60,450 nucleotides of DNA from a virus (lineage: Duplodnaviria; Caudoviricetes), in IMG/VR virus record IMGVR_UViG_3300027740_000026, positions 1-60,450 of that record. The stretch is one strand, 5' to 3'. The number at the start of each line of letters is the position of its first letter. Positions within the stretch are counted from its first letter, which is position 1. Position numbers and translations under genes: made by a program. Shown piece after piece: positions 1,076 to 60,100 of the stretch. A model generated the notes under the pieces. That model made no database searches. It was given only the letters and a program-made list of their open reading frames with translations, and was not told the DNA's origin.

Positions 1076-1122
1076 ATTTAACAACCGCTACACCCGACAA
1101 GCGGGTGAGCTTTTTGTTATAT
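1076..1122 (+). other. attC-like site A1 (minimal 47-bp family)
   Basis: ATTTAAC-aacc-GCT[A]CACCCG-acaag-CGGGTGAGC-ttttt-GTTATAT; near-identical copies at 7909 and 59435. Confidence 0.8.
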
Positions 1123-1233
1123 TACTCAACCAATTCAACGGCTGCGGCCATTATCATCATGACCATCATGCCATCATTTTTGTTGTCGTTGCCCATTCTC
1201 AAAGCTGCCATCAAAACAGACTCTCCTTTGGCC

Positions 1234-1257
1234 TGCCGCTTACTTCAATCGTTATGC
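1234..1257 (+). other. Truncated attC (right half only)
   Basis: CCGCTTACT-tcaatc-GTTATGC; GTTATGCCC is the exact complement of GGGCATAAC at site A2. Confidence 0.6.
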
Positions 1258-1479
1258 CCATACCCGCTTGAACTCCGGGTTAGCCAAATAAACCTTTTCA
1301 GAGTTGGAGTAACGGATATTGTCGGGCGCTATTTTCATGTAATCCTTCAGGTCTTTCGTGGCTTGGGGGACAGACAGCCCGAAATAATCAACCACTGCAC
1401 TTCGGTTGATACTCCCATATTGATGCAGTAAGAAATCAATAAAGCGGAGGCGTTGTTCAACTGCATACTTTAAGGGCAT
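1252..1479 (-). CDS. Stand-alone winged-HTH resembling the N-terminus of CapW/BrxR-type WYL regulators (cassette cargo)
   Basis: QRLRFIDFLL..YGSINRS...YFGLSVPQATKDLKDY...APDNIRY....KVY...PEFK; 75 aa, no WYL domain. Confidence 0.75.
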   Translation of the reverse strand: MPLKYAVEQRLRFIDFLLHQYGSINRSAVVDYFGLSVPQATKDLKDYMKIAPDNIRYSNSEKVYLANPEFKRVWA

Positions 1480-1562
1480 AACCAGTCATCCAAGCCGACC
1501 AGGTTGAAGCGCCGTTGCCCAGCCGTGGTCTTTCGGCTGGCGGCTTAATTAAAACGTTGGCC
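1476..1562 (+). other. attC site A2
   Basis: GCATAAC-cagtc-ATC[C]AAGCCG...CGGCTTAAT-taaaac-GTTGGCC; resembles aadA-type attC. Confidence 0.9.
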
Positions 1563-1566
1563 AGAA

Positions 1567-1755
1567 TCAAATAGGTGGCTCAGTGGATATAGGAACATTA
1601 TGGTTCTGCCCATATTCCACGACAGCCGTTTTAATTTCACCCGCAGACAACCCCGTCAAATACAACCAATCAATAACCAACTCGAAGTGGTGATCCTCTG
1701 TGGAATTTCCGGGGATCATGTCGCTACTAACTCCAGGGGGTAGATTGTCGGACAT
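1567..1755 (-). CDS. Hypothetical protein (cassette cargo)
   Basis: MSDNLPPGV..IPGN ORF between GTTGGCC and GGCCAAC core sites. Confidence 0.65.
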   Translation of the reverse strand: MSDNLPPGVSSDMIPGNSTEDHHFELVIDWLYLTGLSAGEIKTAVVEYGQNHNVPISTEPPI

Positions 1756-1772
1756 AATCAACACCATTAAAG

Positions 1773-1861
1773 GGCCAACAAATTAATTAAGCAGAAGGCG
1801 AGAAGTCCCGGTGGCCTTCGGGCAAGCTCGTTTGCGCCTCTGCTTATTAAAGCCGTTATCT
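1773..1861 (+). other. attC site A3
   Basis: GGCCAAC...TAAT[T]AAGCAGA...TCTGCTTATTA...GTTATCT; R'' complements R' of A2. Confidence 0.88.
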
Positions 1862-2179
1862 TCCCCGATTGATAAAGTACAACTCATGCCCAAGCTCGTA
1901 TAATTCGTGCTCAAGCGCGACCTGTTTATCGATCAGGGCCATTGTGTTTTTCTGCTTTTCGGCAAGGGCGAACATCCGCTTTTCTTCCTCGCCAAGTGGT
2001 TTGAGTAGCTTGACGATTGTCGCGTGGTCGTCTCCATGCTGCTGCAATATTTGCTGGGCCTCAATTCTGATTTCACATATCCGGACAAGAGGATTCGCAG
2101 AGAGCAAGGCCTTTATTGCCGCCACTTTCTTCTCTACCTGGGCTATTGCTTGCCTTACAATTTTTTCTTTTGTCGTCAT
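1856..2179 (-). CDS. Hypothetical helical protein (cassette cargo)
   Basis: 107-aa ORF whose TAA lies inside R' of A3. Confidence 0.7.
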   Translation of the reverse strand: MTTKEKIVRQAIAQVEKKVAAIKALLSANPLVRICEIRIEAQQILQQHGDDHATIVKLLKPLGEEEKRMFALAEKQKNTMALIDKQVALEHELYELGHELYFINRGR

Positions 2180-2193
2180 GGCCTAGTCCTGGA

Positions 2194-2284
2194 AGATAAC
2201 AAGCGGGTCAACTCGACCGCGTGAAGATTCCGATTTTGAATCTGGTAATTCAGTGGCGCGGTCGAGTTACCCTAGTCGTTATTT
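2194..2284 (+). other. attC site A4
   Basis: AGATAAC-aagc-GGGT[C]AACTCGACCGCG...CGCGGTCGAGTTACCC-tagtc-GTTATTT; R'' complements R' of A3. Confidence 0.92.
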
Positions 2285-2300
2285 TGAGAAATAGCGTCCA

Positions 2301-2465
2301 CTATTTCCGAGAATATTTTTCACACTTTTCCGTTATCGTCCTTGACTACAGAAGGCCAGCCAACCGCAATGACGTTGAGACAATAACTGCTGCTTTTTTC
2401 AATATGCAGCCGGGTTTTCCTTTTTGAGATCCCAGCCAAACGCATTTTTTACATGGATGATCCAT
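2301..2465 (-). pseudogene. Small Cys-rich ORF interrupted by a 48-bp insert
   Basis: Removing the insert gives MDHPCKKCVWLGSQKGKPGCILKKAAVITEKCEKYSRK; the insert adds an in-frame TAG. Confidence 0.5.
2334..2385 (+). repeat. 52-bp dispersed repeat (second copy 47182-47233)
   Basis: 51/52 identical (C at 2349 vs T at 47197). Confidence 0.93.
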
Positions 2466-2471
2466 ATCAAT

Positions 2472-2825
2472 TCACGACACGATTGTTTGATTTATGCGGT
2501 CTAAGAATCTGACTCGATCTGCTCGAACCATTTCTATTGTTCCATCATCGAACTCCACAACTGCAACGGTGTAATTACCCGTTCCAGATTCGAGTTCTTC
2601 GTAGTCGTTACCCCATCCGTGGAAATCTGCCTCCCTTGTTTCTTTTAACTCTACTTTTTTTGGGTATACTCCAACCCACTCCGTGACCATCACCCGGCGT
2701 AAGTTCTTCTTTAAATTATTGGTTTCAGCAATTTCGTCGATACACTCTTGCGCCGCATCTCTATCGATTGCACTCGCAAAACTGGCCTTGCTTACATATT
2801 GTCGCAGCCTCTTAATAGCGTCCAT
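2472..2825 (-). CDS. Hypothetical phage protein
   Basis: FHGWG.DYEE...G.GNYTVAVVEFDDGTIE..RVRFLD motif seen in phage proteins; AAGGAG RBS. Confidence 0.7.
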   Translation of the reverse strand: MDAIKRLRQYVSKASFASAIDRDAAQECIDEIAETNNLKKNLRRVMVTEWVGVYPKKVELKETREADFHGWGNDYEELESGTGNYTVAVVEFDDGTIEMVRADRVRFLDRINQTIVS

Positions 2826-2981
2826 CGGTCTCCTTTTCTACACACTCCGGGCATACCCAAAGGATTTGACCATGCTCTTTGTCAAATCTTTGCACCCACC
2901 CGTCAGCAAATGCGTTCTTCGTTTCAATGACGTGTTTTGCATTTTGGTCGCAAACACGTTCAAATTTATTTGCAACGTCAC

Positions 2982-7908: not shown

Positions 7909-7955
7909 TCCTAACTATCGCTGCACCCGACAAGCGGGTGAGCTTTTTGTTATGG
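7909..7955 (+). other. attC-like site A5 (minimal 47-bp family)
   Basis: TCCTAAC-tatc-GCT[G]CACCCG-acaag-CGGGTGAGC-ttttt-GTTATGG. Confidence 0.82.
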
Positions 7956-7956
7956 A

Positions 7957-8634
7957 TCACGAATGGTAGTCCACGGTAACGCACAGCCAATCTGGTTTCG
8001 GGGTTATTTGCGCGGCGTAATCCTCGCGATACGTCGCGGCTTTCTCAATAAATTGATTAACTGCTGTCTTGGCTAACCCATCCCAATTTATCGGCATGTG
8101 GTTAACTCCGTTCCACTGTCCATCGCATAGCATAAACTTGGCCTCAGTGGTAGCCCCGTCATGAGATGGGGCAGCGATAATCACCCTGTGACATTTAAGG
8201 GTCTCAGGGATCTCATCAACCCTGCAAATGTCACAGGCCAGCAGGTCATTCCCGTCATACTGATTCTGAGAGTGGGCAAAGATCGGGCATGGGGTGATCT
8301 CACCGTTTTCAGTTGGGAACAGGTCGTTCCACATTTTGTCAACCATGGGGATCTGGCTGGCTGGTGAAAGCTCTTGTTTGCCACATCGCAGCCCGGAGAC
8401 CTTAACCTCTGCCGCTTTCAGGTCTTTGTAAAATTGTTCTAATTTGCTGGGGTCATATCTGCAAGACTCCTTGCTACCGGCCCATCGCCCTCCAACAACA
8501 AACCAGTCCCAGAAGGCATGGCCGGAAGCGTCTTCATCGTCGCGTTTGTTTTCATCAAAAGGATCAAGAATAGCTTCCAATGTTGCCTGGATGTTGCTTG
8601 ATGGCGGCATAATTACTTCGCAATGGTAGTGCAT
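7957..8634 (-). CDS. Conserved phage protein with WDWFVVGGRW motif (cassette cargo)
   Basis: MHY...WDW..GGRW.G...VDYH pattern; bracketed by GTTATGGA/TCCATAAC. Confidence 0.75.
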   Translation of the reverse strand: MHYHCEVIMPPSSNIQATLEAILDPFDENKRDDEDASGHAFWDWFVVGGRWAGSKESCRYDPSKLEQFYKDLKAAEVKVSGLRCGKQELSPASQIPMVDKMWNDLFPTENGEITPCPIFAHSQNQYDGNDLLACDICRVDEIPETLKCHRVIIAAPSHDGATTEAKFMLCDGQWNGVNHMPINWDGLAKTAVNQFIEKAATYREDYAAQITPKPDWLCVTVDYHS

Positions 8635-8641
8635 AGAATCT

Positions 8642-8734
8642 CCATAACAATCGGTTCAACGCAGATGGCGGGATCTGCTGTTGAGTTTTAAATTTTCTTC
8701 GGTGGCCCGCCACTGGTTAACCGAAGCGTTAGGA
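8642..8734 (+). other. attC site A6
   Basis: CCATAAC-aat-CGGTT[C]AAC[G]CAG...CTGGTTAACCG-aagc-GTTAGGA; two extrahelical bases. Confidence 0.92.
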
Positions 8735-9184
8735 GGAGCAATGCCCCGTTCCGCCTCCACAATGCCCGGCCATGGCCTGAATAAATTTGTCCATCTTGCG
8801 CAACAACCTTGTGTATCTCTCAACAAGATTTATCCCGTCAAGGTGTTCAATCAGAGCGTAGAAGGTGTCTTTCCGATCGTGGCATATCTCCGGCACTGAG
8901 GTCGTCACAAAAACCTTCAGCTCCGTCTTGGCTTTTATCTGCCTCACACAGGCTAATAGTTCGTCAAGGTATAGGCACGGTTCGCCGCCCAAAAACAGCA
9001 CGTCGTCTAGCCCCTTGGCGTTGCTTACAACCGTTTCTACTATCGCCGCAACATCGGGCTTTGTGAGGCCCAGCCCATCGAAGCGACGGTCAATGCAGTG
9101 GGCGCATTTGTTGTCGCACGCACTCGTAAAATGGACATCAAACGAGTTATATATTCCGTCGCAACAGTTACAACTAAGTTTCAT
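8729..9184 (-). CDS. Radical SAM protein, probably truncated (cassette cargo)
   Basis: CDNKCAHC (CxxxCxxC) and FLGGEP; only 151 aa; TAA inside R' of A6. Confidence 0.8.
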   Translation of the reverse strand: MKLSCNCCDGIYNSFDVHFTSACDNKCAHCIDRRFDGLGLTKPDVAAIVETVVSNAKGLDDVLFLGGEPCLYLDELLACVRQIKAKTELKVFVTTSVPEICHDRKDTFYALIEHLDGINLVERYTRLLRKMDKFIQAMAGHCGGGTGHCSS

Positions 9185-9191
9185 AAAAACC

Positions 9192-9278
9192 TCCTAACAA
9201 TAAAATTAACCTGACGGGGTTGATCCGTCCGTTTTTTGCGGGTAGTTCTCGGCCCGCAGGTTATTTAAAGCGTTATGC
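9192..9278 (+). other. attC site A7
   Basis: TCCTAAC...AAAT[T]AACCTG...CAGGTTATTT-aaagc-GTTATGC; CCTCCTAAC complements GTTAGGAGG of A6. Confidence 0.9.
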
Positions 9279-9687: not shown

Positions 9688-9954
9688 ATGGATAAGAAAT
9701 TAAAATCTATCTTTGATAACCACACGTTAGGACCAACAACTAAATTGGTCTATATTTATTTAGTACAAATGGCAAACAAAGACGGTGAGTGCTGGCCAAA
9801 TTACGAGCATATCATGGCTGCGTGTGGAATTACGAGTAAGGCCACTGTATCTAAATCACTTAAAGAGCTGACTTCCGCAGGGGAAATTGTGGTATTCAGA
9901 AAATCAAACGGTTTTAGGCATTCAAACAGGTATGGAATATTGCCGTGTCGATAG
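9688..9954 (+). CDS. Winged-HTH replication initiator-like protein
   Basis: KLVYIYL...ANKDGECWPNYEHI...CGI.SKATVSKSLKEL...G...SNRY; adjacent to iterons. Confidence 0.8.
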   Translation: MDKKLKSIFDNHTLGPTTKLVYIYLVQMANKDGECWPNYEHIMAACGITSKATVSKSLKELTSAGEIVVFRKSNGFRHSNRYGILPCR

Positions 9955-10063
9955 TTCATTTTTTGAACCTTCGATAGTTCATTTTTTGAACTATCGAAGG
10001 TTCATTTTTTGAACCTTCGATAGTTCATTTTTTGTGCGATTGGATAGTTCATTTTTTGAACCG
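9948..10063. repeat. Putative replication origin: five ~23-bp iterons
   Basis: TCGATAGTTCATTTTTTGAACCT-like units at 9948, 9971, 9994, 10017, 10041 with a GTTCA/TGAAC dyad (degenerate in copy 4); followed by AT-rich TATATAAAGACCT repeats. Confidence 0.85.
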
Positions 10064-10132
10064 TATATATAAAGACCTTATATAAAGACCTAAAGACAGG
10101 CTAGCCAAGGAAGAAAATTTTAAGAGGGCCAA

Positions 10133-14365: not shown

Positions 14366-14455
14366 AGACTACGACCAGGGTGAGCTGACCGGGCCACTCA
14401 AACTACAATAAAAAAACAGGCGGTTCCCCGGTTCTGCTCTACCCGCTTGTTATGC
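14366..14455 (-). other. Degenerate attC site B1
   Basis: Minus strand GCATAAC-aagc-GGGT[A]GAGC...GCTCACCC-tggtc-GTAGTCT (R' has lost a T). Confidence 0.7.
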
Positions 14456-14498
14456 GGCGGTTGCCGGTAAAATTATTTTCCAACCCCTTTTATTTTGC

Positions 14499-14527
14499 TT
14501 GCAATTCCGAACAATGTACGGTAAGGT
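14499..14527 (+). promoter_or_regulatory. Cassette promoter with palindromic operator
   Basis: TTGCAA-17-TAAGGT; CCGAACAATGTACGG in the spacer. Confidence 0.7.
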
Positions 14528-14600
14528 GTATTTAACAAAGGCGGCAGTTAACCGCCGTCGGACTTGGCCGAACCAAGGAATGAGTATCTGGAGAAATGAC

Positions 14601-14801
14601 ATGAAAATCGGTGATCGATTTGACGGTCAAACCAGAGACGGTGGGATTGAAAACCCGACCTCCCAGCCGATGGTATTTACCACATACCAGGGCTGGGAGG
14701 CGGGGGACCAGGAGCTAACGCTCCCTCCCCACAGCGCAACCAAACTGGTGAGTAGTGGATCACCGGCTTGTTGCGCACGTCTCGAAGTCGTAGCTCTGTA
14801 A
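14601..14801 (+). CDS. Small unknown protein (candidate anti-defence, cassette cargo)
   Basis: GGAG RBS; lies between promoter and HTH gene. Confidence 0.65.
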   Translation: MKIGDRFDGQTRDGGIENPTSQPMVFTTYQGWEAGDQELTLPPHSATKLVSSGSPACCARLEVVAL

Positions 14802-14916
14802 AGAGTCACGACTTCGGCCACTGAATAAGATTCGGGGCGATACCTGGCCTGGCAACAGAACGAAGGTTTTAAAAGTTATTTTTATAGCAGCGCCTGACCC
14901 GACTAGAGGGGATTAC

Positions 14917-15120
14917 ATGACCAACAAGGAGTTTCAGGCCCAGCAATCACGGCTGGGCCTCACGAATGAACAGACAGCCGCCATTCTCCGCGTGTCGATC
15001 AGGACTGTGGAGAAATGGCGGCAGGGAGTGCGGGGCGAGATACCAGGGCCGGTGGTCGTGGTTTTTTCCCTGCTTGAGCATTACCGCAGTGCAATTTCAT
15101 GGCTGCGGGGTGACACATAA
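14917..15120 (+). CDS. XRE HTH autoregulator (Aca-like)
   Basis: LGLTNEQTAAILRVSIRTVEKWRQG..IPGPV; paralogue of 15571-15774; TAA inside attC B2. Confidence 0.85.
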   Translation: MTNKEFQAQQSRLGLTNEQTAAILRVSIRTVEKWRQGVRGEIPGPVVVVFSLLEHYRSAISWLRGDT

Positions 15121-15176
15121 CGACCAGCATCACCGGACCGCTGCTTTTGCGGTTCCGCGTGCATGCGAGGTTATGT
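15115..15176 (-). other. attC site B2
   Basis: Minus strand ACATAAC-ctcg-CAT[G]CAC[G]CGG...CCGGTGATG-ctggtc-GTTATGT. Confidence 0.85.
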
Positions 15177-15218
15177 GGCGGGTGCCGATAAATTATTTTT
15201 CAACCCCATTTTATTTGC

Positions 15219-15248
15219 TTGACACAACCGTACATTGTGCGGTATAAA
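15219..15248 (+). promoter_or_regulatory. Cassette promoter with palindromic operator
   Basis: TTGACA-18-TATAAA; CCGTACATTGTGCGG matches the inverted operator at 14507 at 14/15. Confidence 0.75.
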
Positions 15249-15313
15249 GAATGAAAGAGCGGCAATCACGCCGCCCACAAACAGCCGGTTTTATCCGGCG
15301 AAAGGAGAACGAC

Positions 15314-15574
15314 ATGAGTACAGATAAAAGATTTTTTGACGTAGCGTCCAGCATGGCCGCGAGAAGAATTTCCTCCCTCTTCACGAGGGGGGAGCTGGTC
15401 ACATCCCATGATGGGATGGTGGACCAGTACCGGGGAAACACCCCGGTGAGGTCTTTTGGTGACCTCGGTCAAATTTTCCCGGTATTTCACCGGGAAGCAT
15501 ACCGGGAACTCCGAATACGGGCCGGAGTTCCCGCCAGTAAAGCCACGTGGGAGTGGCACCAGGTGGTAAAATGA
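15314..15574 (+). CDS. Small unknown protein (candidate anti-defence, cassette cargo)
   Basis: AAGGAG RBS; ATGA-coupled to the HTH gene. Confidence 0.7.
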   Translation: MSTDKRFFDVASSMAARRISSLFTRGELVTSHDGMVDQYRGNTPVRSFGDLGQIFPVFHREAYRELRIRAGVPASKATWEWHQVVK

Positions 15575-15774
15575 CACCGGACGAGTTCAAGGCCAAGCAA
15601 GCCGCGCTTGGCCTGACCAACTTCGACGCCGCCACAGTCCTCCGTGTTTCCGTGCGGACGGTGGAGAAATGGCGGCAGGGCACAAGAGCAGTGCCGGGGC
15701 CAGTGGTAGTGATTTTCTTCCTGCTGGCCAAATATAAAGGGGCGATCCGGTACCTACTGGATCGAGACACATAA
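15571..15774 (+). CDS. XRE HTH autoregulator (Aca-like)
   Basis: LGLTNFDAATVLRVSVRTVEKWRQG..VPGPV; TAA inside attC B3. Confidence 0.85.
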   Translation: MTPDEFKAKQAALGLTNFDAATVLRVSVRTVEKWRQGTRAVPGPVVVIFFLLAKYKGAIRYLLDRDT

Positions 15775-15833
15775 CGCTCCGGCTCACTGGTGCCGCGCAG
15801 TTTGCGGCTTCCGCGTGTAGCCGGTTGTTACCC
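15769..15833 (-). other. attC site B3
   Basis: Minus strand GGGTAAC-aa-CCGGCT[A]CAC[G]CGG...CCAGTGAGCCGG-agc-GTTATGT. Confidence 0.9.
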
Positions 15834-15889
15834 TGGCTAGCCACAAAACCAGGGCAACAAAAAATAATTAATTAATATCATTTTTTCTA

Positions 15890-15917
15890 TTGACTCCCTC
15901 TGATATTGTGGTATTAT
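15890..15917 (+). promoter_or_regulatory. Cassette promoter
   Basis: TTGACT-16-TATTAT with extended TG. Confidence 0.65.
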
Positions 15918-15967
15918 TAAATCAAAGGGAGGGCAATAAAGCACTCTCACAAAACAGGGAGCAAAAC

Positions 15968-16159
15968 ATGAAAACTTACAAAGAAATGTACGAAGAAGCT
16001 GCTGCTAAAACAAACTTTGTATACAAAGGGTATACAAAAGGCAACGCCCTTTCTCTGTACGTTGACGAAAAATACGGGGTGAATGCGGCGGCGGACAATG
16101 CCGCTCATGACGCTCTTTGTGAAGTTGTATCAACAATGAGTTTTGACGATGAAGAGTAA
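15968..16159 (+). CDS. Small protein with acidic tail (candidate anti-defence, cassette cargo)
   Basis: GGGAG RBS; 63 aa ending FDDEE. Confidence 0.7.
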   Translation: MKTYKEMYEEAAAKTNFVYKGYTKGNALSLYVDEKYGVNAAADNAAHDALCEVVSTMSFDDEE

Positions 16160-16340
16160 GAAAGGCGGCAATAGACCAGGGGCCGGGAGACCGGCCCTAA
16201 AACCCGACGAAAAGCCGAAAGATATTTCCCTTCGCTTGCCCCGCGATCTGGTCGAAAAGCTGGACGCGATGGAAGGAAGCCGGGCAAAGCTGATAATTGC
16301 AGCCTGTCGAGCCTACTACAAGATTCGCCCGGCAGGGTAA
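16149..16340 (+). CDS. Ribbon-helix-helix DNA-binding protein
   Basis: GGNRPGAGRP + ISLRLPRDLVEKLD...SRAKLI; TAA inside attC B4. Confidence 0.8.
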   Translation: MKSKKGGNRPGAGRPALKPDEKPKDISLRLPRDLVEKLDAMEGSRAKLIIAACRAYYKIRPAG

Positions 16341-16424
16341 CATTCAGCATAATCAGCGGCGGTCTGTGAACCCCGTTAAAATCACCGCGCGTCCCCGCCG
16401 TCTGCGTTGATGCGCTTGTTAGCA
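16335..16424 (-). other. attC site B4
   Basis: Minus strand TGCTAAC-aagc-GCAT[C]AAC[G]CAG...CTGATTATGC-tgaat-GTTACCC; CAGGGTAAC complements GTTACCCTG of B3. Confidence 0.9.
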
Positions 16425-16448
16425 AGCAAAACCACGGAGGGAATATCC

Positions 16449-16973
16449 ATGGAATTTTTATACCTGGCCGCAATTGATGTGGCTAAGAGAGCGCACAAAG
16501 ACCAGCGGCGGAAGTACACCAACGAGCCGTACATTGTCCACTCATTCGCCGTGGCTGGACTGGTTGCCTCAGTGACGGAAGATGATGACATGGTTATTGC
16601 TGCCATCCTGCATGATGTCGTTGAGGATAGTCCGATAGAGCTGAAAACCATCCGTGGCATATTCGGGGTTAGGATAGCCCAAATGGTTGACGACCTTACG
16701 GACGTTTCCAGGCCAACTGATGGTAACAGGGCCAAAAGGAAAGAGCTTGATTTTGAGCACACGGCCAAAGCCAGCCCGGAAGCGAAAACGGTTAAGTTAG
16801 CTGACTTGATTGACAACACCAAGAGCATTTGGGCTTTTGATAAGAACTTTGCACGTAAGTACATGCACGAAAAAAGGCGATTACTCGAAGTGCTGCAAGA
16901 AGGGGACACCTTTCTTTACGCCTTGGCGCACGAGATGACTCAAAAATACTTTGAAACAGGTGAAATATGCTGA
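16449..16973 (+). CDS. HD-domain (p)ppGpp-hydrolase-like protein (small alarmone hydrolase/Mesh1 type)
   Basis: AH..QRRK....PYIVH, AAILHDVVED, VKLADLIDN. Confidence 0.9.
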   Translation: MEFLYLAAIDVAKRAHKDQRRKYTNEPYIVHSFAVAGLVASVTEDDDMVIAAILHDVVEDSPIELKTIRGIFGVRIAQMVDDLTDVSRPTDGNRAKRKELDFEHTAKASPEAKTVKLADLIDNTKSIWAFDKNFARKYMHEKRRLLEVLQEGDTFLYALAHEMTQKYFETGEIC

Positions 16974-17008
16974 TTGTAAAAATGCTGTTCGGTAGTCACC
17001 TGATGTGA
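16967..17008 (+). pseudogene. Orphaned original N-terminus of the nucleotidyltransferase
   Basis: MLIVKMLFGSHLM*; shares TGTTCGGTAGTCACCTG with 17643-17659. Confidence 0.75.
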
Positions 17009-17051
17009 TCCGTTGTTGACTTTTCCACCAGATTCATGTACTCATTTAAGA

Positions 17052-17630
17052 ATGAAACATAATGATAAATGGAGTTGGAACTGGTCGAAAGAACACGTTG
17101 GCATGAAAATAGGACGGCTTACGTTAATAGAGCCTCTACCTGAACGTCCTGAAAATCGTTGGAGATGTATATGCCAGTGTGGGAAAGATATCGTTGCTCG
17201 GTGGTCAGCATTGAAACGCGGAATAACTAAATCCTGCGGTTGTTTAAAGAGCGAAACTACAGTGCAAAAAAACAAGCGCGGATTTAAGGGGAGAGGGGAG
17301 TTGTCGGGGACTTACTTTAGTCAGATTCGGTACCAGGCTAAAAAAAGAAATCTTGAGTTTAGCATTACTGTTGATGATCTGTGGGACTTATTCTTGGCGC
17401 AAAAAGGAAAATGTGCAATTTCCGGCATGGACATTTTCTTAACACCAGGGACTAAGAGAGGTCACCCCACAAGTGCAAGTTTAGATAGGATCAATTCAAC
17501 TAAAGGGTACGCATTAAATAATGTCCAGTGGGTTCATAAGCATATCAATATTATGAAAAACTCTCAATCAATGGAGGAATTTCTTTATATATGCAAAAAG
17601 ATTGCTGCGTTTCAAGCAAAGAAAACATAA
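17052..17630 (+). CDS. Free-standing HNH homing endonuclease
   Basis: WRCICQCG...KSCGC N-terminus; CAISG...SLDRINSTKGY..NVQWVHKHINIMK. Confidence 0.88.
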   Translation: MKHNDKWSWNWSKEHVGMKIGRLTLIEPLPERPENRWRCICQCGKDIVARWSALKRGITKSCGCLKSETTVQKNKRGFKGRGELSGTYFSQIRYQAKKRNLEFSITVDDLWDLFLAQKGKCAISGMDIFLTPGTKRGHPTSASLDRINSTKGYALNNVQWVHKHINIMKNSQSMEEFLYICKKIAAFQAKKT

Positions 17631-18601
17631 TCATGCGTTGTGTGTTCGGTAGTCACCTGTACGGCACATCTACCCCCGCCAGCGACAAAGACTTTAAAGG
17701 GGTGTCCCTGCCAACATGGGAGCAGGTGGCGCTTGGAAGAATACCAAAGCACGCTGAGAATACCTCAACGGGGCAAGCGCACAGCAAGAACACCGCGCAA
17801 GATGTGGACACGGAAATTTTCGGATTGCATGAGTTTGTGAAACTCGCCTGTGAAGGGCAAACCGTGGCGATGGACATGCTACACGCCCCCGCCGATATGC
17901 TTATTTCTGTAACCCCGTTATGGGCCGAAATCCAGAAGCACAAGGCCAAGTTTTACAGCAAAAATATTCACTCGTTTATCGGGTACGCCATGGGCCAAGC
18001 CGCTAAATACGGGGTGAAGGGTAGCAGACTGAATGATGCAAAGGCCGTTTTAAGTTGGCTTGAAAGTCAACCAGAATCCGCGAAATTGGCAGATTGCGAC
18101 CTTGGCACATTCCCGGCGGGGGAACATATTAGGCTGATTGAGTCTGACGACCCGCTGAAACAAAACCAATACGATGTCTGTGGCAAAAAGATACAGCTTA
18201 CCAGTCGGGTGCAATATGCGTATAACATTGTGTCGCATTTTTATAAGAACTACGGCGAAAGAGCAAGGCAAGCAGCCTGTGACGAAGGGGTTGATTGGAA
18301 GGCAATAAGCCACGCATTTAGAGCCGCTTACCAAATGCGAGAACTTTTTGTCTCTGGGACGATAACTTTCCCACGCCCAGAAGCGAAACTGCTGACAGAT
18401 ATAAAAACTGGCAACATGAAATACCGTGATGCGGCCCCAATGCTGGAAGACATTATTGACGAAGTAAAGGGGCTGAAAGATCGGTGTGAGTTCCCTGAAC
18501 AGCCGGATAGGAACTTTTGGGATTCTTTCATTTTGCGCATTGTAGAGGAGGTCATTGTTCCGAATCTTCGCAAGGCTGATAGCGGAATTTCTGCTTGCTA
18601 A
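17591..18601 (+). CDS. Pol-beta superfamily nucleotidyltransferase (phage type)
   Basis: FGSHLYGTSTPASDKDFKGV (GS..DxD); DWKAISHAFR; ITFPRP; start may be 17633; TAA inside attC B5. Confidence 0.88.
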   Translation: MQKDCCVSSKENIIMRCVFGSHLYGTSTPASDKDFKGVSLPTWEQVALGRIPKHAENTSTGQAHSKNTAQDVDTEIFGLHEFVKLACEGQTVAMDMLHAPADMLISVTPLWAEIQKHKAKFYSKNIHSFIGYAMGQAAKYGVKGSRLNDAKAVLSWLESQPESAKLADCDLGTFPAGEHIRLIESDDPLKQNQYDVCGKKIQLTSRVQYAYNIVSHFYKNYGERARQAACDEGVDWKAISHAFRAAYQMRELFVSGTITFPRPEAKLLTDIKTGNMKYRDAAPMLEDIIDEVKGLKDRCEFPEQPDRNFWDSFILRIVEEVIVPNLRKADSGISAC

Positions 18602-18685
18602 CGCCAATGGTAACCAGCGGCGGCCACGGAGCTTGACGACGAGCAACGCTGCTCCCCGCCGTCTGCGTTTACCCGCTTGTTAGTC
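18596..18685 (-). other. attC site B5
   Basis: Minus strand GACTAAC-aagcg-GGT[A]AAC[G]CAG...CTGGTTACC-attggc-GTTAGCA; TGCTTGCTAAC complements GTTAGCAAGCA of B4. Confidence 0.9.
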
Positions 18686-57682: not shown

Positions 57683-57855
57683 ACCCAACAAGCGGGTAGA
57701 GAGGGACGCGGGGAAACGTCCGATTTCCAAGCGGGGTTCATTGGCCCGCGCTCGCCCCCTCCGGGGGCTTGCCTCCCCCGAGGGCTCACTGCGCGGTTTT
57801 AGGGTTATAATTCTACTCCAAGCAAGGCGGCAACCGGTGATGCTGGTCGTTATAT
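57683..57855 (+). other. Chimeric/degenerate attC site C1
   Basis: Left arm ACCCAAC-aagc-GGGT[A]GAG (B1-type) and right arm CCGGTGATG-ctggtc-GTTATAT (B2-type) do not pair with each other. Confidence 0.65.
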
Positions 57856-58053
57856 TTTCACCCACCCTGGACAATCGGGCTTGGTGTATTTGTTGACACT
57901 GTTGCGCCTCGGCATATCTCCGCGATAGTCACCAAAGCAATGAGGCAGCGCCACCTCCGGGTAGTTGCACTTGGCAGATGATTCCAGTTTCCTTTTGCCG
58001 CTGGCCGTCCTCTGCCACTCCGAATAACCACAATTCACACAGTTTTTAACCAT
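57850..58053 (-). CDS. Small Cys-rich protein (cassette cargo)
   Basis: Bracketed by GTTATATTTT/AAAATATAAC; TAA inside R'. Confidence 0.7.
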   Translation of the reverse strand: MVKNCVNCGYSEWQRTASGKRKLESSAKCNYPEVALPHCFGDYRGDMPRRNSVNKYTKPDCPGWVKI

Positions 58054-58070
58054 CTTCGGTGCCTCCCAAA

Positions 58071-58120
58071 ATATAACAATGCCAATTAACGCAGACGCCT
58101 AGCTGGTTATGGCGCTACGA
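58071..58120 (+). other. Degenerate attC site C2
   Basis: ATATAAC...GCCAATTAACGCAG/CTGGTTATGGC; R' missing. Confidence 0.55.
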
Positions 58121-58392
58121 ATACGGTCAAGGCGACCAAGGACGCTTCTCGTAGAGACAAAGCTGTCTTTGAGCCACGCGCCTTTATCGTCATACTGCGC
58201 TTTAATGTAGTAACACCCGATTCTGTCGGCCCTTACCGCTTCTTCGAGGTCTTTAAGGGCTTTACCCATGGCCCCGCAGTCAGAAGCATCTCCGGCTATA
58301 AAACCCGCCCGGAATATCGCTCGCACCATGTCATTGAACGATAATGGCAGCCTGCGAAAATCGTTGCATTGCTCGTCTGTCAACATATTCAA
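58099..58392 (-). CDS. Hypothetical protein
   Basis: LTDEQCNDFRRLPLSFNDMVRAI. Confidence 0.6.
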   Translation of the reverse strand: MNMLTDEQCNDFRRLPLSFNDMVRAIFRAGFIAGDASDCGAMGKALKDLEEAVRADRIGCYYIKAQYDDKGAWLKDSFVSTRSVLGRLDRIRSAITS

Positions 58393-58778
58393 TCTCCTGT
58401 AAATCTAATTCTTACCTCTCCGCCCTTGACAACTTCATCACGTAAAAAAGGGTGGCCGACAAAACGCCTGTCATTGACCCCTATGGCGTCGGCTATTCCA
58501 TCCATCAAGTTTTTGCAGGCACTATAGCAATTGTCGGCATCACGGAGCCGCTTGTCTGGTGGGTAAAAATCAATAAACAAATGTATTTTACCATCTCCAA
58601 AAATGACCGGACTTTTCGCAAATGCAACCTTCGTCAACAACTCCCCTGTTCGCCTGTATGCCTTCGCTGCCCTGCTTTTTACAGCCCAATGGCACCGTGA
58701 ATTAGGGCTCAACTCTTTTGGAAACCACGGATATGAGATTTCAATCAAAACAAGTTCCCTTTTTTTTCTCGTTTTCAA
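58389..58778 (-). CDS. RusA-like Holliday junction resolvase
   Basis: LSPNSR.HW, FYPPDKRLRDADN...K...DGIADAIGVND. Confidence 0.85.
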   Translation of the reverse strand: MKTRKKRELVLIEISYPWFPKELSPNSRCHWAVKSRAAKAYRRTGELLTKVAFAKSPVIFGDGKIHLFIDFYPPDKRLRDADNCYSACKNLMDGIADAIGVNDRRFVGHPFLRDEVVKGGEVRIRFTGD

Positions 58779-58781
58779 GCT

Positions 58782-58964
58782 TCAATGTTTTGTCTTCCCT
58801 AAAACCTTGTCACAAAGACTGACAACATGCTCTGGGACAAGGGTTTTACATTCAGGATAATAGTCAATATCGAACTTTGCCCATGTCCTGATTACTTTCA
58901 AGGCACTCTCATAATTACGTGCCTTTTTTTGTTGCCTTTTCCAATACGCTTTATTTATGATCAT
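58782..58964 (-). CDS. Hypothetical protein
   Basis: 60-aa ORF in operon. Confidence 0.5.
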   Translation of the reverse strand: MIINKAYWKRQQKKARNYESALKVIRTWAKFDIDYYPECKTLVPEHVVSLCDKVLGKTKH

Positions 58965-58966
58965 TT

Positions 58967-59428
58967 TTATGCCGGATCTCCGCGAAGCATTCTTTTTTTT
59001 GCTTCAATTACCATCTCTTCAACTGTCAGTCCAATTTGATCGGCGCACCACTGGAAAAATTTCGTCATCCATTCTTGCCGGTCATTTCCTTTTAATTTGT
59101 CAAACGCCATCGACCTGTACTGCAATTGCACGCCGCCATCAGGCCTAACAAATACCATGGACGGATCAACAAAATGTGTGCCAACCTTACACGACATTTT
59201 CACACCGTCGAATGTTTGGTGGCATGGATTGTTCGAGTTTTCGAGAACCAGCTTGTAACACGCATGTAAAAGTCCAGACTGCTCTATGATTTTCCGTGTT
59301 GGTTTTGATACGGATGTTATGCGGACCTTCACAAGTTGATTCGTTGCCAATTCAGAAGCAAGAATTCTTTCATCTTCTTCTGAAAAAGGCTTCAAATAGC
59401 CTCTATACTGACAAATGAATGGTTCCAT
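58967..59428 (-). CDS. NinB/DUF1367-like protein
   Basis: R...Q..LLHA, RSMAFDKL; located beside the RusA-like gene. Confidence 0.55.
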   Translation of the reverse strand: MEPFICQYRGYLKPFSEEDERILASELATNQLVKVRITSVSKPTRKIIEQSGLLHACYKLVLENSNNPCHQTFDGVKMSCKVGTHFVDPSMVFVRPDGGVQLQYRSMAFDKLKGNDRQEWMTKFFQWCADQIGLTVEEMVIEAKKRMLRGDPA

Positions 59429-59434
59429 CGTTTT

Positions 59435-59481
59435 TCCCAACGACCGCTGCACCCGACAAGCGGGTGAGCTTTTTGTTAGAT
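59435..59481 (+). other. attC-like site C3 (minimal 47-bp family)
   Basis: TCCCAAC-gacc-GCT[G]CACCCG-acaag-CGGGTGAGC-ttttt-GTTAGAT. Confidence 0.82.
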
Positions 59482-60018
59482 GCGAGAAATACCAAAATCC
59501 CGCGCCTTGATTTTCACCATACGCCCGTCGTCGCGCCACCAGACAACGCCCTCGATATCCCGGCAAGCCCCGAACCATTCTCGCAGGGCATCGAACGTCC
59601 GGGGGGCGTCAACCGTTCGTGTCCCGTGAGGAATCAAGGTGTGCTTCTCGAAGCGTTCAGGGTTCCCCTGCACCTTCGGCCCGACAAGCTCATACGTCCC
59701 GTCCGCTTCGTTGCCGTGAAATGCCTCGCGGTGCCAACGGTCTTCCGGGCCGTCACCAACCGGCAACCATCCCTGCTGCTTCCCCGTCACCTCGTCTACG
59801 TCGTTCGCGGGCTCGAAGTCCGGCGGGGGCGTCTTGCCCGGCTTCACCTCGAACCGCTTGAACAGTTTCCCGCCGCGCACCATGCAGCACGTTCCGTCCC
59901 ACTTGCGGGTTGCGCGGCCTTCGCCAGCGATTACCCATTCGGCACCGGGCACAACCTCATTGCGCACGTTCCGGTCGCCATCGTAGTTTCGAGCGAAAAG
60001 AGAAATGATCTTCTTCAT
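59476..60018 (-). CDS. RNA-ligase-like protein (DUF5565-like), GC-rich cassette cargo
   Basis: ATRKWDGT (KxDG), TYELVG, EGVVW, KIK motifs; TAA inside R' of C3. Confidence 0.75.
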   Translation of the reverse strand: MKKIISLFARNYDGDRNVRNEVVPGAEWVIAGEGRATRKWDGTCCMVRGGKLFKRFEVKPGKTPPPDFEPANDVDEVTGKQQGWLPVGDGPEDRWHREAFHGNEADGTYELVGPKVQGNPERFEKHTLIPHGTRTVDAPRTFDALREWFGACRDIEGVVWWRDDGRMVKIKARDFGISRI

Positions 60019-60044
60019 GCCAATCCTCCGTTGTTGTGCTGGGC

Positions 60045-60100
60045 ATCTAACCCAGCGTTGTAGCTGACGGCTTCGCCGCAGCTAAACTTTTTTGTTAGCA
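60045..60100 (+). other. attC site C4
   Basis: ATCTAAC-ccagc-GTT[G]TAGCTG-acggcttcgccg-CAGCTAAAC-tttttt-GTTAGCA; GCATCTAAC complements GTTAGATGC of C3. Confidence 0.92.

What the first reader, a model, noticed from the sequence alone, without database searches (positions are those of the whole stretch)
1076..60100. Phage accessory genome built from integron-type attC gene cassettes, with no integrase of its own
Seen: 17 attC-like sites in five clusters (1076-2284, 7909-9278, 14366-18685, 57683-58120, 59435-60100). Intact ones show R''(..AAC), an L'' box with an extrahelical base usually 9 nt after AAC, a variable stem, L' and R'(GTT..). The core site opening each cassette is the reverse complement of the one closing it, and the pair differs between cassettes: GTTATGCCC/GGGCATAAC, GTTGGCC/GGCCAAC, GTTATCT/AGATAAC, GTTATGGA/TCCATAAC, GTTAGGAGG/CCTCCTAAC, GTTATGT/ACATAAC, GTTACCCTG/CAGGGTAAC, GTTAGCAAGCA/TGCTTGCTAAC, GTTATATTTT/AAAATATAAC, GTTAGATGC/GCATCTAAC. 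Established: this is the footprint left when circular cassettes integrate at G|TT via IntI. I recognise no tyrosine recombinase in the complete genome. Inference: the phage uses a host integron integrase to load and shuffle early accessory genes, as a phage-side cassette system.
Basis: partly seen in the sequence, partly recalled or inferred. Interest (0 to 1): 0.95.

Follow-up and report, generated by a model that had tools for sequence, protein, structure and literature searches.

The report
Reversed integron cassette arrays in phage
A complete soil phage genome keeps about a dozen small accessory genes in genuine integron-type swappable cassettes, built back to front and with no recombinase of its own, so it probably borrows its host's integron integrase; phage cassette arrays are already published, but this layout is not.

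Summary
The window is a complete, integrase-less tailed-phage genome. A covariance model trained only on 24 bacterial and plasmid attC sites finds 11 sites here at E <= 1.1e-5. It also finds three 47-nt minimal sites at E 0.03-0.05. A model trained on 7 phage sites ranks all 4 attC sites of plasmid R46 as its top hits in 50 kb. It gives 0 hits in 997 kb of other phage loci. Core sites of neighbouring attCs are complementary over 6-11 nt in 9 of 9 cassettes, against a mean of 4.0 for 173 non-neighbour pairs. Three or four of the 17 claimed sites are degenerate remnants.

The same attC family lies beside intI in uncultured deltaproteobacterial genomes. No cargo is shared with them.

Unlike bacterial arrays, every cassette gene runs antisense to its attC, and attC polarity flips at a likely replication origin. 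I found no excision junctions and no close relatives, so trans-acting host IntI remains an inference.

Phage attC clusters (CALINs) are published (Qi 2023). This scan has also noted reversed phage arrays on other DNA.

The parts
1076..1122 (+). Minimal 47-nt attC-like hairpin (S1), first site of array 1, next to the Ref-like nuclease gene 745-1074(-)
   Evidence: R2 18.7 bits, E 0.031. Bottom-strand fold -11.6 kcal/mol, z -5.5. Near-identical copies at 7909 and 59435. On the + strand it also reads as a terminator-like hairpin.
1124..1257 (+). Degenerate remnant (S2) that supplies the GTTATGCCC core site opening cassette c1
   Evidence: No model hit. No hairpin fold, z +0.73. Inferred only from the 9-nt core-site pair 1251-1259 / 1474-1482.
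1252..1556 (+). Cassette c1: reversed ORF 1252-1479(-), 75 aa, plus attC S3 (1476-1562)
   Evidence: S3: R2 33.0 bits, E 1.1e-5. The ORF runs from an ATG inside the R'' box to a TAA that is the complement of the TTA after the crossover G.
1557..1855 (+). Cassette c2: reversed ORF 1567-1767(-), 66 aa, plus attC S4 (1773-1861)
   Evidence: S4: R2 50.7 bits. Core pair GTTGGCC/GGCCAAC, 7 nt.
1856..2278 (+). Cassette c3: reversed ORF 1856-2179(-), 107 aa, plus attC S5 (2194-2284)
   Evidence: S5: R2 52.8 bits. R1 gives 71.7 bits on + against 9.0 on -. Fold z -6.0. Core pair 10 nt.
7909..7955 (+). Minimal attC-like hairpin (S6), first site of array 2
   Evidence: R2 17.7 bits, E 0.054. Fold z -3.0.
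7950..8728 (+). Cassette c4: reversed ORF 7957-8634(-), 225 aa, of a widespread phage protein family, plus attC S7 (8642-8734)
   Evidence: S7: R2 63.8 bits. Core pair 8 nt. 242 homologues at E <= 1e-5. In 24 viral loci holding a homologue, only 1 had an attC-like hit within 4 kb.
8729..9272 (+). Cassette c5: reversed radical-SAM ORF 8729-9184(-), 151 aa, plus attC S8 (9192-9278)
   Evidence: S8: R2 53.4 bits. Pfam Radical_SAM and Fer4_12. Core pair 9 nt.
9948..10081 (.). Five 23-nt iterons between the divergent gene blocks, just upstream of the helicase gene: likely replication origin, across which attC polarity flips
   Evidence: Direct-repeat family D1. Cumulative GC-skew minimum at 8-10 kb. 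Helicase 10133-11680 and primase 11661-12590.
14366..14455 (-). attC B1, last site of array 3; its R' core reads GT-A (one T missing)
   Evidence: R1 53.6 bits, not in R1's training set. R2 50.9 bits. Its R' extension matches the complement of B5's R'' extension apart from one missing T and one mismatch over 13 nt.
14372..15120 (-). Cassette c11: own promoter-like block, ORF about 14601-14801(+), HTH ORF 14917-15120(+), plus attC B1
   Evidence: HTH_23 E 3.5e-5. Core pair 6 nt. Paralogue of c6.
15121..15774 (-). Cassette c6: ORF 15251-15574(+), HTH ORF 15547-15774(+), plus attC B2 (15115-15176)
   Evidence: B2: R1 24.8 bits, not in training. R2 32.9 bits. Core pair 8 nt.
15775..16340 (-). Cassette c7: sigma-70-like promoter at 15890, two small ORFs (15890-16159, 16143-16340, +), plus attC B3 (15769-15833)
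   Evidence: B3: R1 36.6 bits, not in training. R2 37.5 bits. Core pair 9 nt. 87.6% identical over 475 nt to another viral contig, L090. Variant contigs in runs X1-X3 lose homology one base past the AAC at 16341. Promoter match 10 of 12.
16341..18601 (-). Cassette c8: HD phosphohydrolase 16407-16973(+), HNH endonuclease 17013-17630(+), nucleotidyltransferase 17591-18601(+), plus attC B4 (16335-16424)
   Evidence: B4: R2 65.4 bits. Pfam HD_4 and RlaP. PHROGs 990, 3322 and 388. Core pair 11 nt.
18596..18685 (-). attC B5, first site of array 3 on the top strand (likely the resident site)
   Evidence: R2 70.3 bits, E 1e-14. 79-86% identical to attC sites in five bacterial MAGs.
57683..57856 (+). 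Degenerate attC remnants D1 and D2
   Evidence: D1: R2 14.4 bits, E 0.34, no attC-type fold. D2: a 20-nt 3' half identical to that of B2, read.
57850..58120 (+). Fossil cassette c9 (reversed ORF 57850-58053, 67 aa), followed by D3, a 5' half attC
   Evidence: 10-nt core pair GTTATATTTT/AAAATATAAC read. D3: R2 9.7 bits, no fold.
59435..59481 (+). Minimal attC-like hairpin (E1), first site of array 5
   Evidence: R2 18.6 bits, E 0.033. Fold z -2.35.
59476..60100 (+). Cassette c10: reversed RNA-ligase-like ORF 59476-60018(-), 180 aa, plus short attC E2 (60045-60100)
   Evidence: E2: R2 35.3 bits, E 3e-6. Fold z -2.9 with two bulges on the 3' arm of the bottom strand. Pfam RLIG1. phrog_14301 E 5e-70. 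Core pair 9 nt.

Best explanation
WHAT IT IS. These are genuine integron-type gene cassettes. The complete 60.3-kb tailed-phage genome, which has no integrase, holds four to five clusters of attC sites (CALINs).

UNIT STRUCTURE. Each unit is one cargo segment of 1-3 genes plus one attC hairpin: AAC core, 5-nt spacer, 3 bp, one bulged base, stem, 6-nt spacer, GTT core.

FOOTPRINT (shown). The sequence after each G|TT is complementary to the sequence before the AAC of the next site. That is the mark left when a circular cassette with a self-paired attC is inserted at G|TT.

MECHANISM (inferred). The phage has no recombinase. During infection, an integron integrase of the host most likely did the insertions. 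The host would be an uncultured deltaproteobacterium-like lineage whose own integrons use the same attC family. IntI would pair folded bottom strands of a resident phage attC and a cassette attC, and perhaps first act at a GWT-type secondary site.

ORIENTATION (shown). The cargo genes are phage-type. All of them run antisense to the attC top strand, the reverse of bacterial arrays. They are therefore read with the phage's own transcription, and each gene's TAA is usually the complement of the TTA right after the crossover point.

WHY REVERSED (inferred). If replication starts at the iterons near 10.0 kb and runs both ways, the reversed layout puts every recombinogenic bottom strand on the lagging-strand template. 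That is the orientation shown in Vibrio cholerae to favour attC folding and excision. Only sites in that orientation recombine well, and only cargo facing the phage's transcription is kept.
For: 1. RECIPROCAL MODELS
- R1, trained on 7 phage sites, ranks the 4 of 4 attC sites of plasmid R46's class 1 integron as its top four hits in 50 kb. All are on the gene-sense strand (E 5e-6 to 9e-4); the next hit has E 0.83.
- R1 finds three untrained phage sites (E 5e-11, 1e-6, 1e-3).
- R1 gives 0 hits at E <= 0.01 in 996,972 bases of 80 other phage loci, with default filters.
- R2, trained on 24 bacterial and plasmid sites, gives 11 window hits at E <= 1.1e-5.

2. FOOTPRINT. Adjacent pairs match over 6-11 nt (mean 8.6, n=9). 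The 173 non-adjacent pairs have mean 4.0. Bona fide bacterial arrays show the same 7-10 nt matches.

3. RESIDENT SITE. B1's R' extension mirrors B5's R'' extension over 13 nt, apart from one missing T and one mismatch. This is expected if all four cassettes went into one resident attC.

4. NO RECOMBINASE in a complete genome.

5. SAME attC FAMILY IN BACTERIA
- Seven bacterial MAG contigs hold it; five are labelled Deltaproteobacteria or Desulfobacteraceae.
- IntI lies above the 265-bit cut-off in 4 of 5 MAGs tested and in 0 of 14 control genomes.
- In L107 and L108 the arrays lie beside intI with the top strand pointing away from it.

6. ORIENTATION
- The antisense ORF is the longest in 8 of 9 window intervals. 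The sense ORF is the longest in 17 of 17 bacterial intervals.
- All 6 Pfam-supported cassette ORFs are antisense.

7. MODULARITY
- Cassette c7 recurs at 87.6% identity in an unrelated 171-kb viral contig.
- It also recurs in contigs of three runs from two studies. There homology stops one base after the AAC core and a different attC-like sequence follows.

8. NOT A CHIMERA. Contigs of runs X1 and X2 bridge arrays and core genes at even depth of 11.5-18. These runs may be the source sample.

9. LITERATURE
- IntI1 recombined 5 of 6 attC sites from virulent phages (Qi 2023, section 3.4).
- A bottom strand on the lagging-strand template favours folding and excision (Richard 2024, passages).
- IntI inserts cassettes at GWT genome sites (Loot 2023, sections read).
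Against: - No junction of excision, deletion or circle at a core site was seen in the contigs of three runs. The two joints found (15897>16178 and 16739>14371) rest on one contig each with 21-35 nt sides.
- No close relative was available to show precise gain or loss. Best TerL identity is 64% among the top 80 loci from viral contigs and from metagenome contigs.
- No cargo is shared with the five IntI-bearing MAGs, so exchange with bacterial integrons is not shown.
- The host is unknown, and the link to those MAGs rests on attC similarity alone.
- The three minimal sites score below the 20-bit threshold used by Qi et al. They also read as plain terminator-like hairpins on the + strand.
- B1's R' core lacks a T, and 3-4 sites are decayed. 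Parts of the system may therefore be fossils.
- R2's training sites were picked with R1, so the two models are not fully independent. The R46 sites and the position beside intI are the independent anchors.
- GC skew follows transcription as well as replication, so the origin call is tentative.
- In five other viral contigs with this attC family, gene orientation is mixed: by the longest-ORF rule, sense in 7 and antisense in 5 of 12 intervals.
Confidence: 0.7

Rival explanations
1. Fossil arrays. Pieces of bacterial integron arrays, or single cassettes, entered an ancestor of this phage. Entry was by IntI once, or by illegitimate or Erf/RecE-mediated recombination. They are now fixed, ordinary phage genes, and the hairpins survive only as intergenic terminators or RNA structures. 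Nothing is loaded or shuffled today.
For: - No excision junctions in three runs.
- 3-4 sites are decayed, and B1's crossover core is mutated to GT-A.
- The phage encodes its own RecE-like exonuclease, Erf-like annealing protein and Ref-like nuclease. These could move DNA through short homologies such as conserved attC arms.
- Loot et al. note that attC sites are easily lost by replication slippage, which domesticates cassettes.
Against: - Eleven sites keep full structure, with 93.7% of cells paired and compensatory changes.
- Arrays sit at four to five separate places.
- The cargo is phage-type and absent from the MAGs tested. All of it faces the phage's transcription, which wholesale capture from bacterial arrays (sense genes in 17 of 17 intervals) would not give.
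- The outer ends of array 3 rebuild one site, which points to site-specific insertion inside the phage.
- Cassette c7 occurs in other contexts, with homology ending at the core.
Confidence: 0.2
2. The hairpins are substrates of a different enzyme that recognises hairpins. It could be encoded by the phage (an unrecognised family) or by another mobile element. The likeness to attC would then be convergent or only partial.
For: - Most early genes have no family match.
- The minimal 47-nt site is so far found only in viral contigs: 3 other contigs and 0 of 5 MAGs.
- Earlier notes of this scan describe phage cassette systems that sit beside Xer-like recombinases on other DNA (unchecked here).
Against: - The sites are 79-86% identical over their full length to attC sites lying beside intI in bacteria.
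- They score up to 70 bits with a model trained only on bacterial and plasmid sites.
- No tyrosine or serine recombinase domain is seen in six frames at E <= 10.
Confidence: 0.07
3. Chance or ordinary intergenic terminators. The core-site pairs are coincidental, or the contig is a chimeric assembly of phage and bacterial integron DNA.
For: - Short AAC...GTT palindromes are common. A crude palindrome scan gave 27 candidates against 14 in shuffles.
- Simple 7-mer inverted pairs are no more frequent than in shuffles.
- The terminator-like scan is enriched generally: 47 against 25.
Against: - Model hits are confined to the five clusters and are strand-specific.
- There are 0 hits in 997 kb of other phage DNA.
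- Core-site matching is specific to neighbouring sites.
- Independent contigs bridge arrays and core genes at even depth. A second study holds an identical 246-nt piece across the B3 junction.
Confidence: 0.03

Closest known systems
CALINs (clusters of attC sites lacking an integron integrase) in bacteriophage genomes: Qi, Rajabal, Ghaly, Tetu and Gillings 2023, Front Microbiol, PMC9892861. I read the abstract, sections 2.1 and 3.4, and passages with Tables 1-2; supplements are closed.
   Same: attC sites and cassettes lie in phages that have no IntI, including virulent phages. The proposed use of a bacterial IntI is the same. IntI1 recombined 5 of 6 tested phage attC sites.
   Different: - Published examples are small. 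Each has at least 2 sites, and TJE1 has 3 attC sites and 4 ORFs. The supplementary tables, which I could not see, may hold larger ones.
[quoted passage not shown] It does not state gene direction relative to attC.
- Here there are 11-14 sites in four to five arrays spread through the early and accessory regions of one complete genome.
- Here every cargo gene is antisense to its attC and polarity flips at the likely origin.
- Three arrays are headed by one shared minimal site.
Chromosomal integrons of uncultured Deltaproteobacteria-labelled MAGs
   Same: - Same attC family: exact 27-nt degenerate motif, 79-86% identity over whole sites.
- Same architecture and same 7-10 nt core-site footprint.
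   Different: - The MAGs have intI beside the array, and their genes are sense to attC in 17 of 17 intervals.
- The phage has no intI and its genes are antisense.
- No shared cargo.
Class 1 integron attC sites (plasmid R46, NC_003292)
   Same: Same R''/L''/L'/R' layout, with the bulged base at the same model position. The phage-trained model recovers 4 of 4 sites.
   Different: - Low sequence identity (24.6-33.3 bits).
- R46's sites are 60-70 nt; most phage sites are 87-93 nt.
- R46's cargo is antibiotic-resistance genes in sense orientation behind Pc.
Cassette insertion at secondary genome sites (attG) and single attC sites (SALINs): Loot et al. 2023 bioRxiv 10.1101/2022.09.11.507474. I read the abstract, the introduction, one results section and the discussion.
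   Same: It offers a demonstrated way for IntI to place a first cassette in DNA that has no att site. It also explains later decay of attC sites.
   Different: - It was shown for bacterial chromosomes, not phages.
- The arrays here start with an attC-like site rather than a bare GWT junction.
Orientation of the Vibrio cholerae chromosomal integron relative to replication: Richard et al. 2024 Sci Adv, PMC13108822 (passages read)
   Same: It links attC polarity to replication. A bottom strand on the lagging-strand template gives high excision.
   Different: - The native bacterial array has bottom strands on the leading-strand template, the quiet state.
- The phage, if its origin is at about 10 kb, has all of them on the lagging-strand template, the active state.

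Membership tests
attC recombination site | Imperfect palindrome bounded by inverse core ...AAC (R'') and core GTT... (R') | tested here: met
   AAC and GTT are invariant in the 7-site alignment. The R helix pairs in 96.4% of cells in the 14-site alignment.
attC recombination site | Inner L''/L' helix with extrahelical base(s) on one arm, giving strand asymmetry | tested here: met
   - The bulge sits at column 16, ninth base after AAC.
- Folds of bottom strands show the bulge on the 3' arm.
- Model scores are strand-specific: S5 scores 71.7 bits against 9.0.
- The identity of the bulged base varies. That canonical sites prefer G and T is recalled, not tested.
attC recombination site | Structure conserved while sequence varies (compensatory changes) | tested here: met
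   41 cells with changes on both sides, against 12.0 in shuffles (0 of 500). Covariation score 0.461 against 0.110. The alignment is fitted to the model.
attC recombination site | Recognised by a covariance model of accepted attC sites | tested here: met
   - R2 (24 bacterial and plasmid sites): 11 hits at E <= 1.1e-5.
- Reciprocal test: R1 finds 4 of 4 R46 sites.
- IntegronFinder's own model and HattCI were not available.
attC recombination site | Recombined by an integron integrase as a folded bottom strand | not testable with these tools
   Needs an attC x attI conjugation assay, as in Qi 2023.
Integron gene cassette | The first bases after G|TT are complementary to the R'' of the cassette's own attC (circular-intermediate footprint) | tested here: met
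   9 of 9 adjacent pairs match over 6-11 nt, against mean 4.0 for 173 other pairs. The same pattern is seen in arrays beside intI.
Integron gene cassette | Usual form: promoterless gene in sense orientation followed by its attC | tested here: not met
   - Genes are antisense in 8 of 9 intervals, and all 6 Pfam-supported ORFs are antisense.
- At least cassette c7 has a promoter-like site.
- This is a usual feature, not a defining one. That reversed cassettes with their own promoters, such as toxin-antitoxin cassettes, are known in bacteria is recalled.
CALIN (cluster of attC sites lacking integron integrase) | At least two attC sites close together and no intI nearby | tested here: met
   - Clusters of 3, 2 and 5 solid sites, plus one solid site at 60045.
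- Spacing within clusters is under 2.3 kb.
- No intI anywhere in the genome.
Complete integron | intI gene, attI site and Pc promoter next to the array | tested here: not met
   No TIGR02249 or PF00589 match at E <= 10 in six frames of the complete genome. attI was not searched for, since it has no general model.

The most novel reading that the evidence does not exclude
Some phages run a phage-side integron.
- They keep dedicated landing pads: the shared 47-nt minimal attC that heads three arrays here and recurs in three other viral contigs but in none of five IntI-bearing MAGs.
- They hold their accessory and likely anti-defence genes as reversed cassettes.
- Every recombinogenic bottom strand then lies on the lagging-strand template on both sides of the origin, while the genes still follow phage transcription.
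- The host's SOS-induced IntI becomes a gene-shuffling engine for the phage.
- Because the cargo is phage-type but the attC sites are host-type, phage genomes would also be places where new cassettes are made. The origin of integron cassettes is an old open question.
Probability: 0.3. Interest if true: 0.85.

Novelty: new variant of a known kind. Interest (0 to 1): 0.64.

Why it matters
Integrons are known as bacterial devices for stockpiling and shuffling genes, including phage-defence genes. If phages carry matching cassette arrays served by the host's own integrase, the same enzyme feeds both sides of the arms race, and phages become a route for cassette traffic between bacteria.

This genome is a clean, complete test case:
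- 11 well-formed sites
- exact footprints
- a resident site that can be reconstructed
- a candidate landing pad
- a reversed layout that makes a specific, testable prediction about replication and attC folding

It also bears on where cassettes come from, because ordinary phage genes are here joined to host-type attC sites. The basic phenomenon is already published, so the value lies in the scale and the layout.

Tried and rejected
- NAIVE COUNTS. All GTTxxxx/xxxxAAC inverted 7-mers within 4 kb are no more frequent than in shuffles: 335 on the + strand, against a mean of 467 for both strands of shuffles. This says nothing about the sites, so I replaced it with the adjacency test.
- CRUDE PALINDROME SCAN. 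An anchored-palindrome scan was neither sensitive nor specific: 27 candidates against 14.4 in shuffles. I dropped it for covariance models.
- Rfam has no matching family at gathering scores.
- MEGABLAST of bases 1-20000 against GenBank phages gave no match.
- CLOSE RELATIVES. Among the best 80 TerL-related loci kept from viral contigs and from metagenome contigs, identity is at most 64%. Loci holding homologues of the 225-aa protein are not syntenic. Cassette gain or loss between relatives could therefore not be tested.
- LAID CONTIGS of runs X1-X3. There were no joints at core sites. Parts without cover in X3 are not interpreted. The 16% word share of X3 turned out to be short identical pieces at depth 2-4.
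- TERMINATOR READING. The three minimal sites do look like + strand terminators. The 87-93-nt sites do not, and terminators cannot explain the core-site footprint.
- OUTER-END COMPLEMENTARITY was looked for in arrays 1, 2 and 5 and not found (by eye). It is present only in array 3.
- DNA of 1000-9400 against five MAGs gave nothing.
- PRINT SEARCHES for a reversed phage cassette layout turned up only Qi et al. 2023 as a direct precedent. The listings show nothing on reversed orientation in phages, but subscription journals and supplements were not searchable.

Full report
WHAT THE WINDOW IS

It is one IMG/VR virus record of 60450 bases, rated 100% complete by CheckV. Its first 148 bases repeat its last 147 with one homopolymer difference, so the assembly closes on itself.

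It is a tailed phage. Annotated genes:
- helicase 10133-11680 and primase 11661-12590
- small terminase 19405-20016 and large terminase 20009-21451
- portal 22094-24178
- internal virion protein 33641-35662
- RecE-like exonuclease 3697-4323(-), Erf-like annealing protein 4298-5053(-) and Ref-like nuclease 745-1074(-)

Genes run on the minus strand in 1-9300 and 56300-60450 and on the plus strand in between. Six-frame searches found no tyrosine recombinase (PF00589), no integron integrase (TIGR02249) and no serine recombinase (PF00239) at E <= 10. The same searches rang in 13-14 of 14 control genomes.

ARE THE SITES attC SITES?

I aligned seven of the longer hairpins in one orientation. The consensus fold gave:
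- a 4-bp outer helix (TAAC/GTTA)
- a 4-nt against 5-nt internal loop
- a 4-bp helix with compensatory changes
- one bulged base, the ninth after AAC
- a 3-bp helix, then an inner stem

Model R1, built from these seven sites, was tested in four ways.
- In the window it found three further, untrained sites: 14366-14455, 15769-15833 and 15115-15176, with E 5e-11, 1e-6 and 1e-3.
- Its scores were strongly strand-specific: 71.7 bits against 9.0 for the same site on the two strands.
- On 50 kb of plasmid R46, which carries intI1 and four cassettes, its four best hits were exactly the four intergenic attC positions. All lay on the strand of the cassette genes, at E 5e-6 to 9e-4. The fifth hit had E 0.83.
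- On 996,972 bases from 80 loci of other phages it gave no hit at E <= 0.01, with default filters.

I then built model R2 from 24 sites taken only from bacterial MAG integrons and R46 and ran it over the window with filters off.
- Eleven hits had E <= 1.1e-5.
- The three 47-nt minimal sites followed at E 0.03-0.05.
- One remnant scored E 0.34, and noise began at about E 1.5.
- R2's training sites were chosen with R1, so R2 is not fully independent. However, the R46 sites are known attC sites, and the MAG sites lie in arrays beside intI.

On the 14-site alignment, 93.7% of cells pair, against 71.8% in shuffles and 26-44% in slid controls. There are 41 double-sided changes, against 12 in shuffles. 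The alignment is fitted to the model.

The sites claimed at about 1124-1257, 57683-57856 and 58071-58120 neither score nor fold. They are remnants.

THE CASSETTE FOOTPRINT

I compared the R' extension of each site (GTT and what follows) with the complement of the R'' extension of every other site.
- The nine neighbouring pairs match over 7, 10, 8, 9, 9, 11, 9, 8 and 6 nt.
- The 173 other pairs average 4.0 nt, and only 4 reach 7.
- A site's own two ends match over only 2-5 nt, with one exception caused by paralogous cassettes.
- Arrays beside intI in bacteria show the same 7-10 nt matches.

B1's R' extension mirrors B5's R'' extension over 13 nt, apart from one missing T and one mismatch. Removing the four cassettes of array 3 at their crossover points would therefore leave one self-paired attC. 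This argues that the cassettes were inserted inside the phage, one after another, into a resident site.

ORIENTATION

R1 and R2 hit the gene-sense strand in R46. They hit the strand pointing away from intI in two MAG integrons, L107 (intI at 12673-13620 of the locus) and L108. In those bacterial arrays the longest ORF between sites is on the attC top strand in 17 of 17 intervals.

In the phage the reverse holds.
- The longest ORF is antisense in 8 of 9 intervals.
- All six cassette ORFs with Pfam support are antisense: radical SAM, RLIG1, two HTH, HD_4 and RlaP.
- The ninth interval holds two antisense ORFs, one of them an HTH.
- In 9 of 11 cassettes the TAA of the reversed gene is the complement of the TTA that follows the crossover G. 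The start codon or ribosome-binding site often lies in the R'' box. The units are thus maximally compact.

Top strands are + in the minus-strand gene blocks and - in the plus-strand block, so polarity flips between 9278 and 14366.

That interval holds five 23-nt iterons at 9948-10081, just upstream of the helicase gene. The cumulative GC-skew minimum lies there too. If this is a bidirectional origin, every attC bottom strand lies on the lagging-strand template. Richard et al. (passages read) state that this orientation favours attC folding and excision, and that the native Vibrio cholerae array has the opposite, quiet orientation. This step is inference. Skew also follows transcription, and the replication mode is unknown.

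WHERE THE SITES COME FROM

A 27-nt degenerate motif shared by sites B4, B5 and S7 occurs in the following.
- Ten stretches of nine other IMG/VR contigs. Several hold arrays of 2-8 sites. None of the five searched has a tyrosine recombinase, but those five are only 47-71% complete.
- Seven contigs of bacterial MAGs. Five are labelled Deltaproteobacteria or Desulfobacteraceae, one Nitrospira and one Pseudomonadota.

Four of five MAGs tested encode integron integrases above the 265-bit cut-off. No control genome does. One intI is on the same 47-kb contig as the motif.

Phage sites B5, B4 and B3 are 79-86% identical over their full length to sites in all five MAGs. Nothing else in 14300-18750 or 1000-9400 matches them, and no cassette protein matches the bacterial loci fetched. 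The hairpins are therefore host-type and the cargo is not.

THE CARGO
- The 225-aa protein of cassette c4 has 242 homologues. In 24 viral loci that hold one, an attC-like hit lies within 4 kb in only 1. Elsewhere it is an ordinary phage gene.
- Other cargo matches phage families: RNA ligase phrog_14301, phosphohydrolase phrog_990 and nucleotidyltransferase phrog_388.
- Three cluster-3 cassettes carry a small gene plus an HTH or similar regulator. At least one has a strong promoter-like site.

EVIDENCE OF MOBILITY
- Cassette c7 is 87.6% identical over 475 nt to part of an unrelated 171-kb viral contig. Neighbouring cassettes there show the same reversed layout and 10-nt footprints.
- Contigs in three runs from two studies hold a c7 variant (21 differences in 442 nt in run X3). 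Its homology stops at 16342, one base past the AAC core. It then continues with a different attC-like sequence.
- Against this, no deletion or circle junction at a core site was seen. The two joints reported rest on single contigs with short sides.
- Runs X1 and X2 may be the source sample. They show even depth of 11.5-18 and contigs that bridge arrays and core genes, which argues against a chimeric assembly. Run X3, from another study, holds short identical pieces, including one across the B3 junction.

THE MINIMAL SITE

The 47-nt hairpin has AAC, a 4-nt spacer, 3 bp, a bulge, 6 bp, a 5-nt loop and GTT.
- It heads arrays 1, 2 and 5 on the top strand, where attI would sit in an integron.
- Copies in three other viral contigs score 18.0-32.3 bits with R2, and one has self-complementary core sites.
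- It was not found in five MAGs with up to 2 mismatches.
- It may be a phage landing pad, but on the + strand it is also a plausible terminator. Its status is open.

COMPARISON WITH WHAT IS KNOWN

Qi et al. 2023 screened 10,705 phage genomes and found 3 complete integrons, 1 In0 element and 17 CALINs. They showed that IntI1 recombines 5 of 6 attC sites from three virulent phages. The kind is therefore known.

What I did not find in print (searches; supplements closed):
- a complete phage with this many sites in several arrays
- the systematic reversed gene orientation
- the polarity flip at the origin
- the shared minimal head site

This scan's own earlier notes describe reversed phage arrays on other DNA. 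Those are unchecked leads, not support.

VERDICT

This is a new variant of a known kind. I put 0.7 on cassettes inserted by a host IntI in trans, 0.2 on fossil arrays, and the rest on other enzymes or artefact.

Noticed in passing
window 2334-2385 and 47182-47233: A 52-nt piece of the giant 3965-aa virion gene is copied (51 of 52 identical) into the early region, about 50 nt from attC S5. Logan contigs break at 2334-2379, as expected for a repeat.
   Followed up: partly
window 16986-17002 and 17643-17659; ORF 17013-17630(+): An HNH endonuclease gene (phrog_3322, phrog_374) sits between the HD and nucleotidyltransferase genes inside cassette c8. It is flanked by an exact 17-nt direct repeat (0 such pairs in 100 shuffles). 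It looks like a homing-endonuclease insertion that split a coupled gene pair.
   Followed up: partly
window 9948-10091: Five 23-nt iterons (partly palindromic) and a 13-nt tandem duplicate lie just upstream of the helicase gene, at the switch of gene strands and the GC-skew minimum. This is a likely replication origin.
   Followed up: partly
window 40469-52366(+): A single 3965-aa ORF whose only Pfam match is a 32-residue DUF5710 stretch. It is the largest gene of the phage and its function is unknown.
   Followed up: no
window 14453-15120 and 15173-15774: Two paralogous cassettes share a near-identical upstream block with promoter-like elements and a terminal HTH gene, but carry unrelated small first genes. 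The layout resembles regulator-guarded anti-defence loci.
   Followed up: no
L216 4715-4763(+) and 7514-7562(-): A distant phage contig (40.8 kb) with RecE-like and Erf-like homologues carries two copies of the minimal site in opposite orientation. One copy has self-complementary core sites.
   Followed up: partly
G002 (30.5-kb viral contig; loci L082, L088): Eight attC hits: six on + at 9.2-17.5 kb and two on - at 24.2-26.3 kb. Polarity flips here as well, but most ORFs between sites are sense. It may be a phage with canonical cassettes, or a bacterial integron fragment classed as viral.
   Followed up: no
window 6766-7404(-): An ATP-grasp protein of the R2K clade (Pfam R2K_2, R2K_3) lies in the early region, outside the cassettes.
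   Followed up: no
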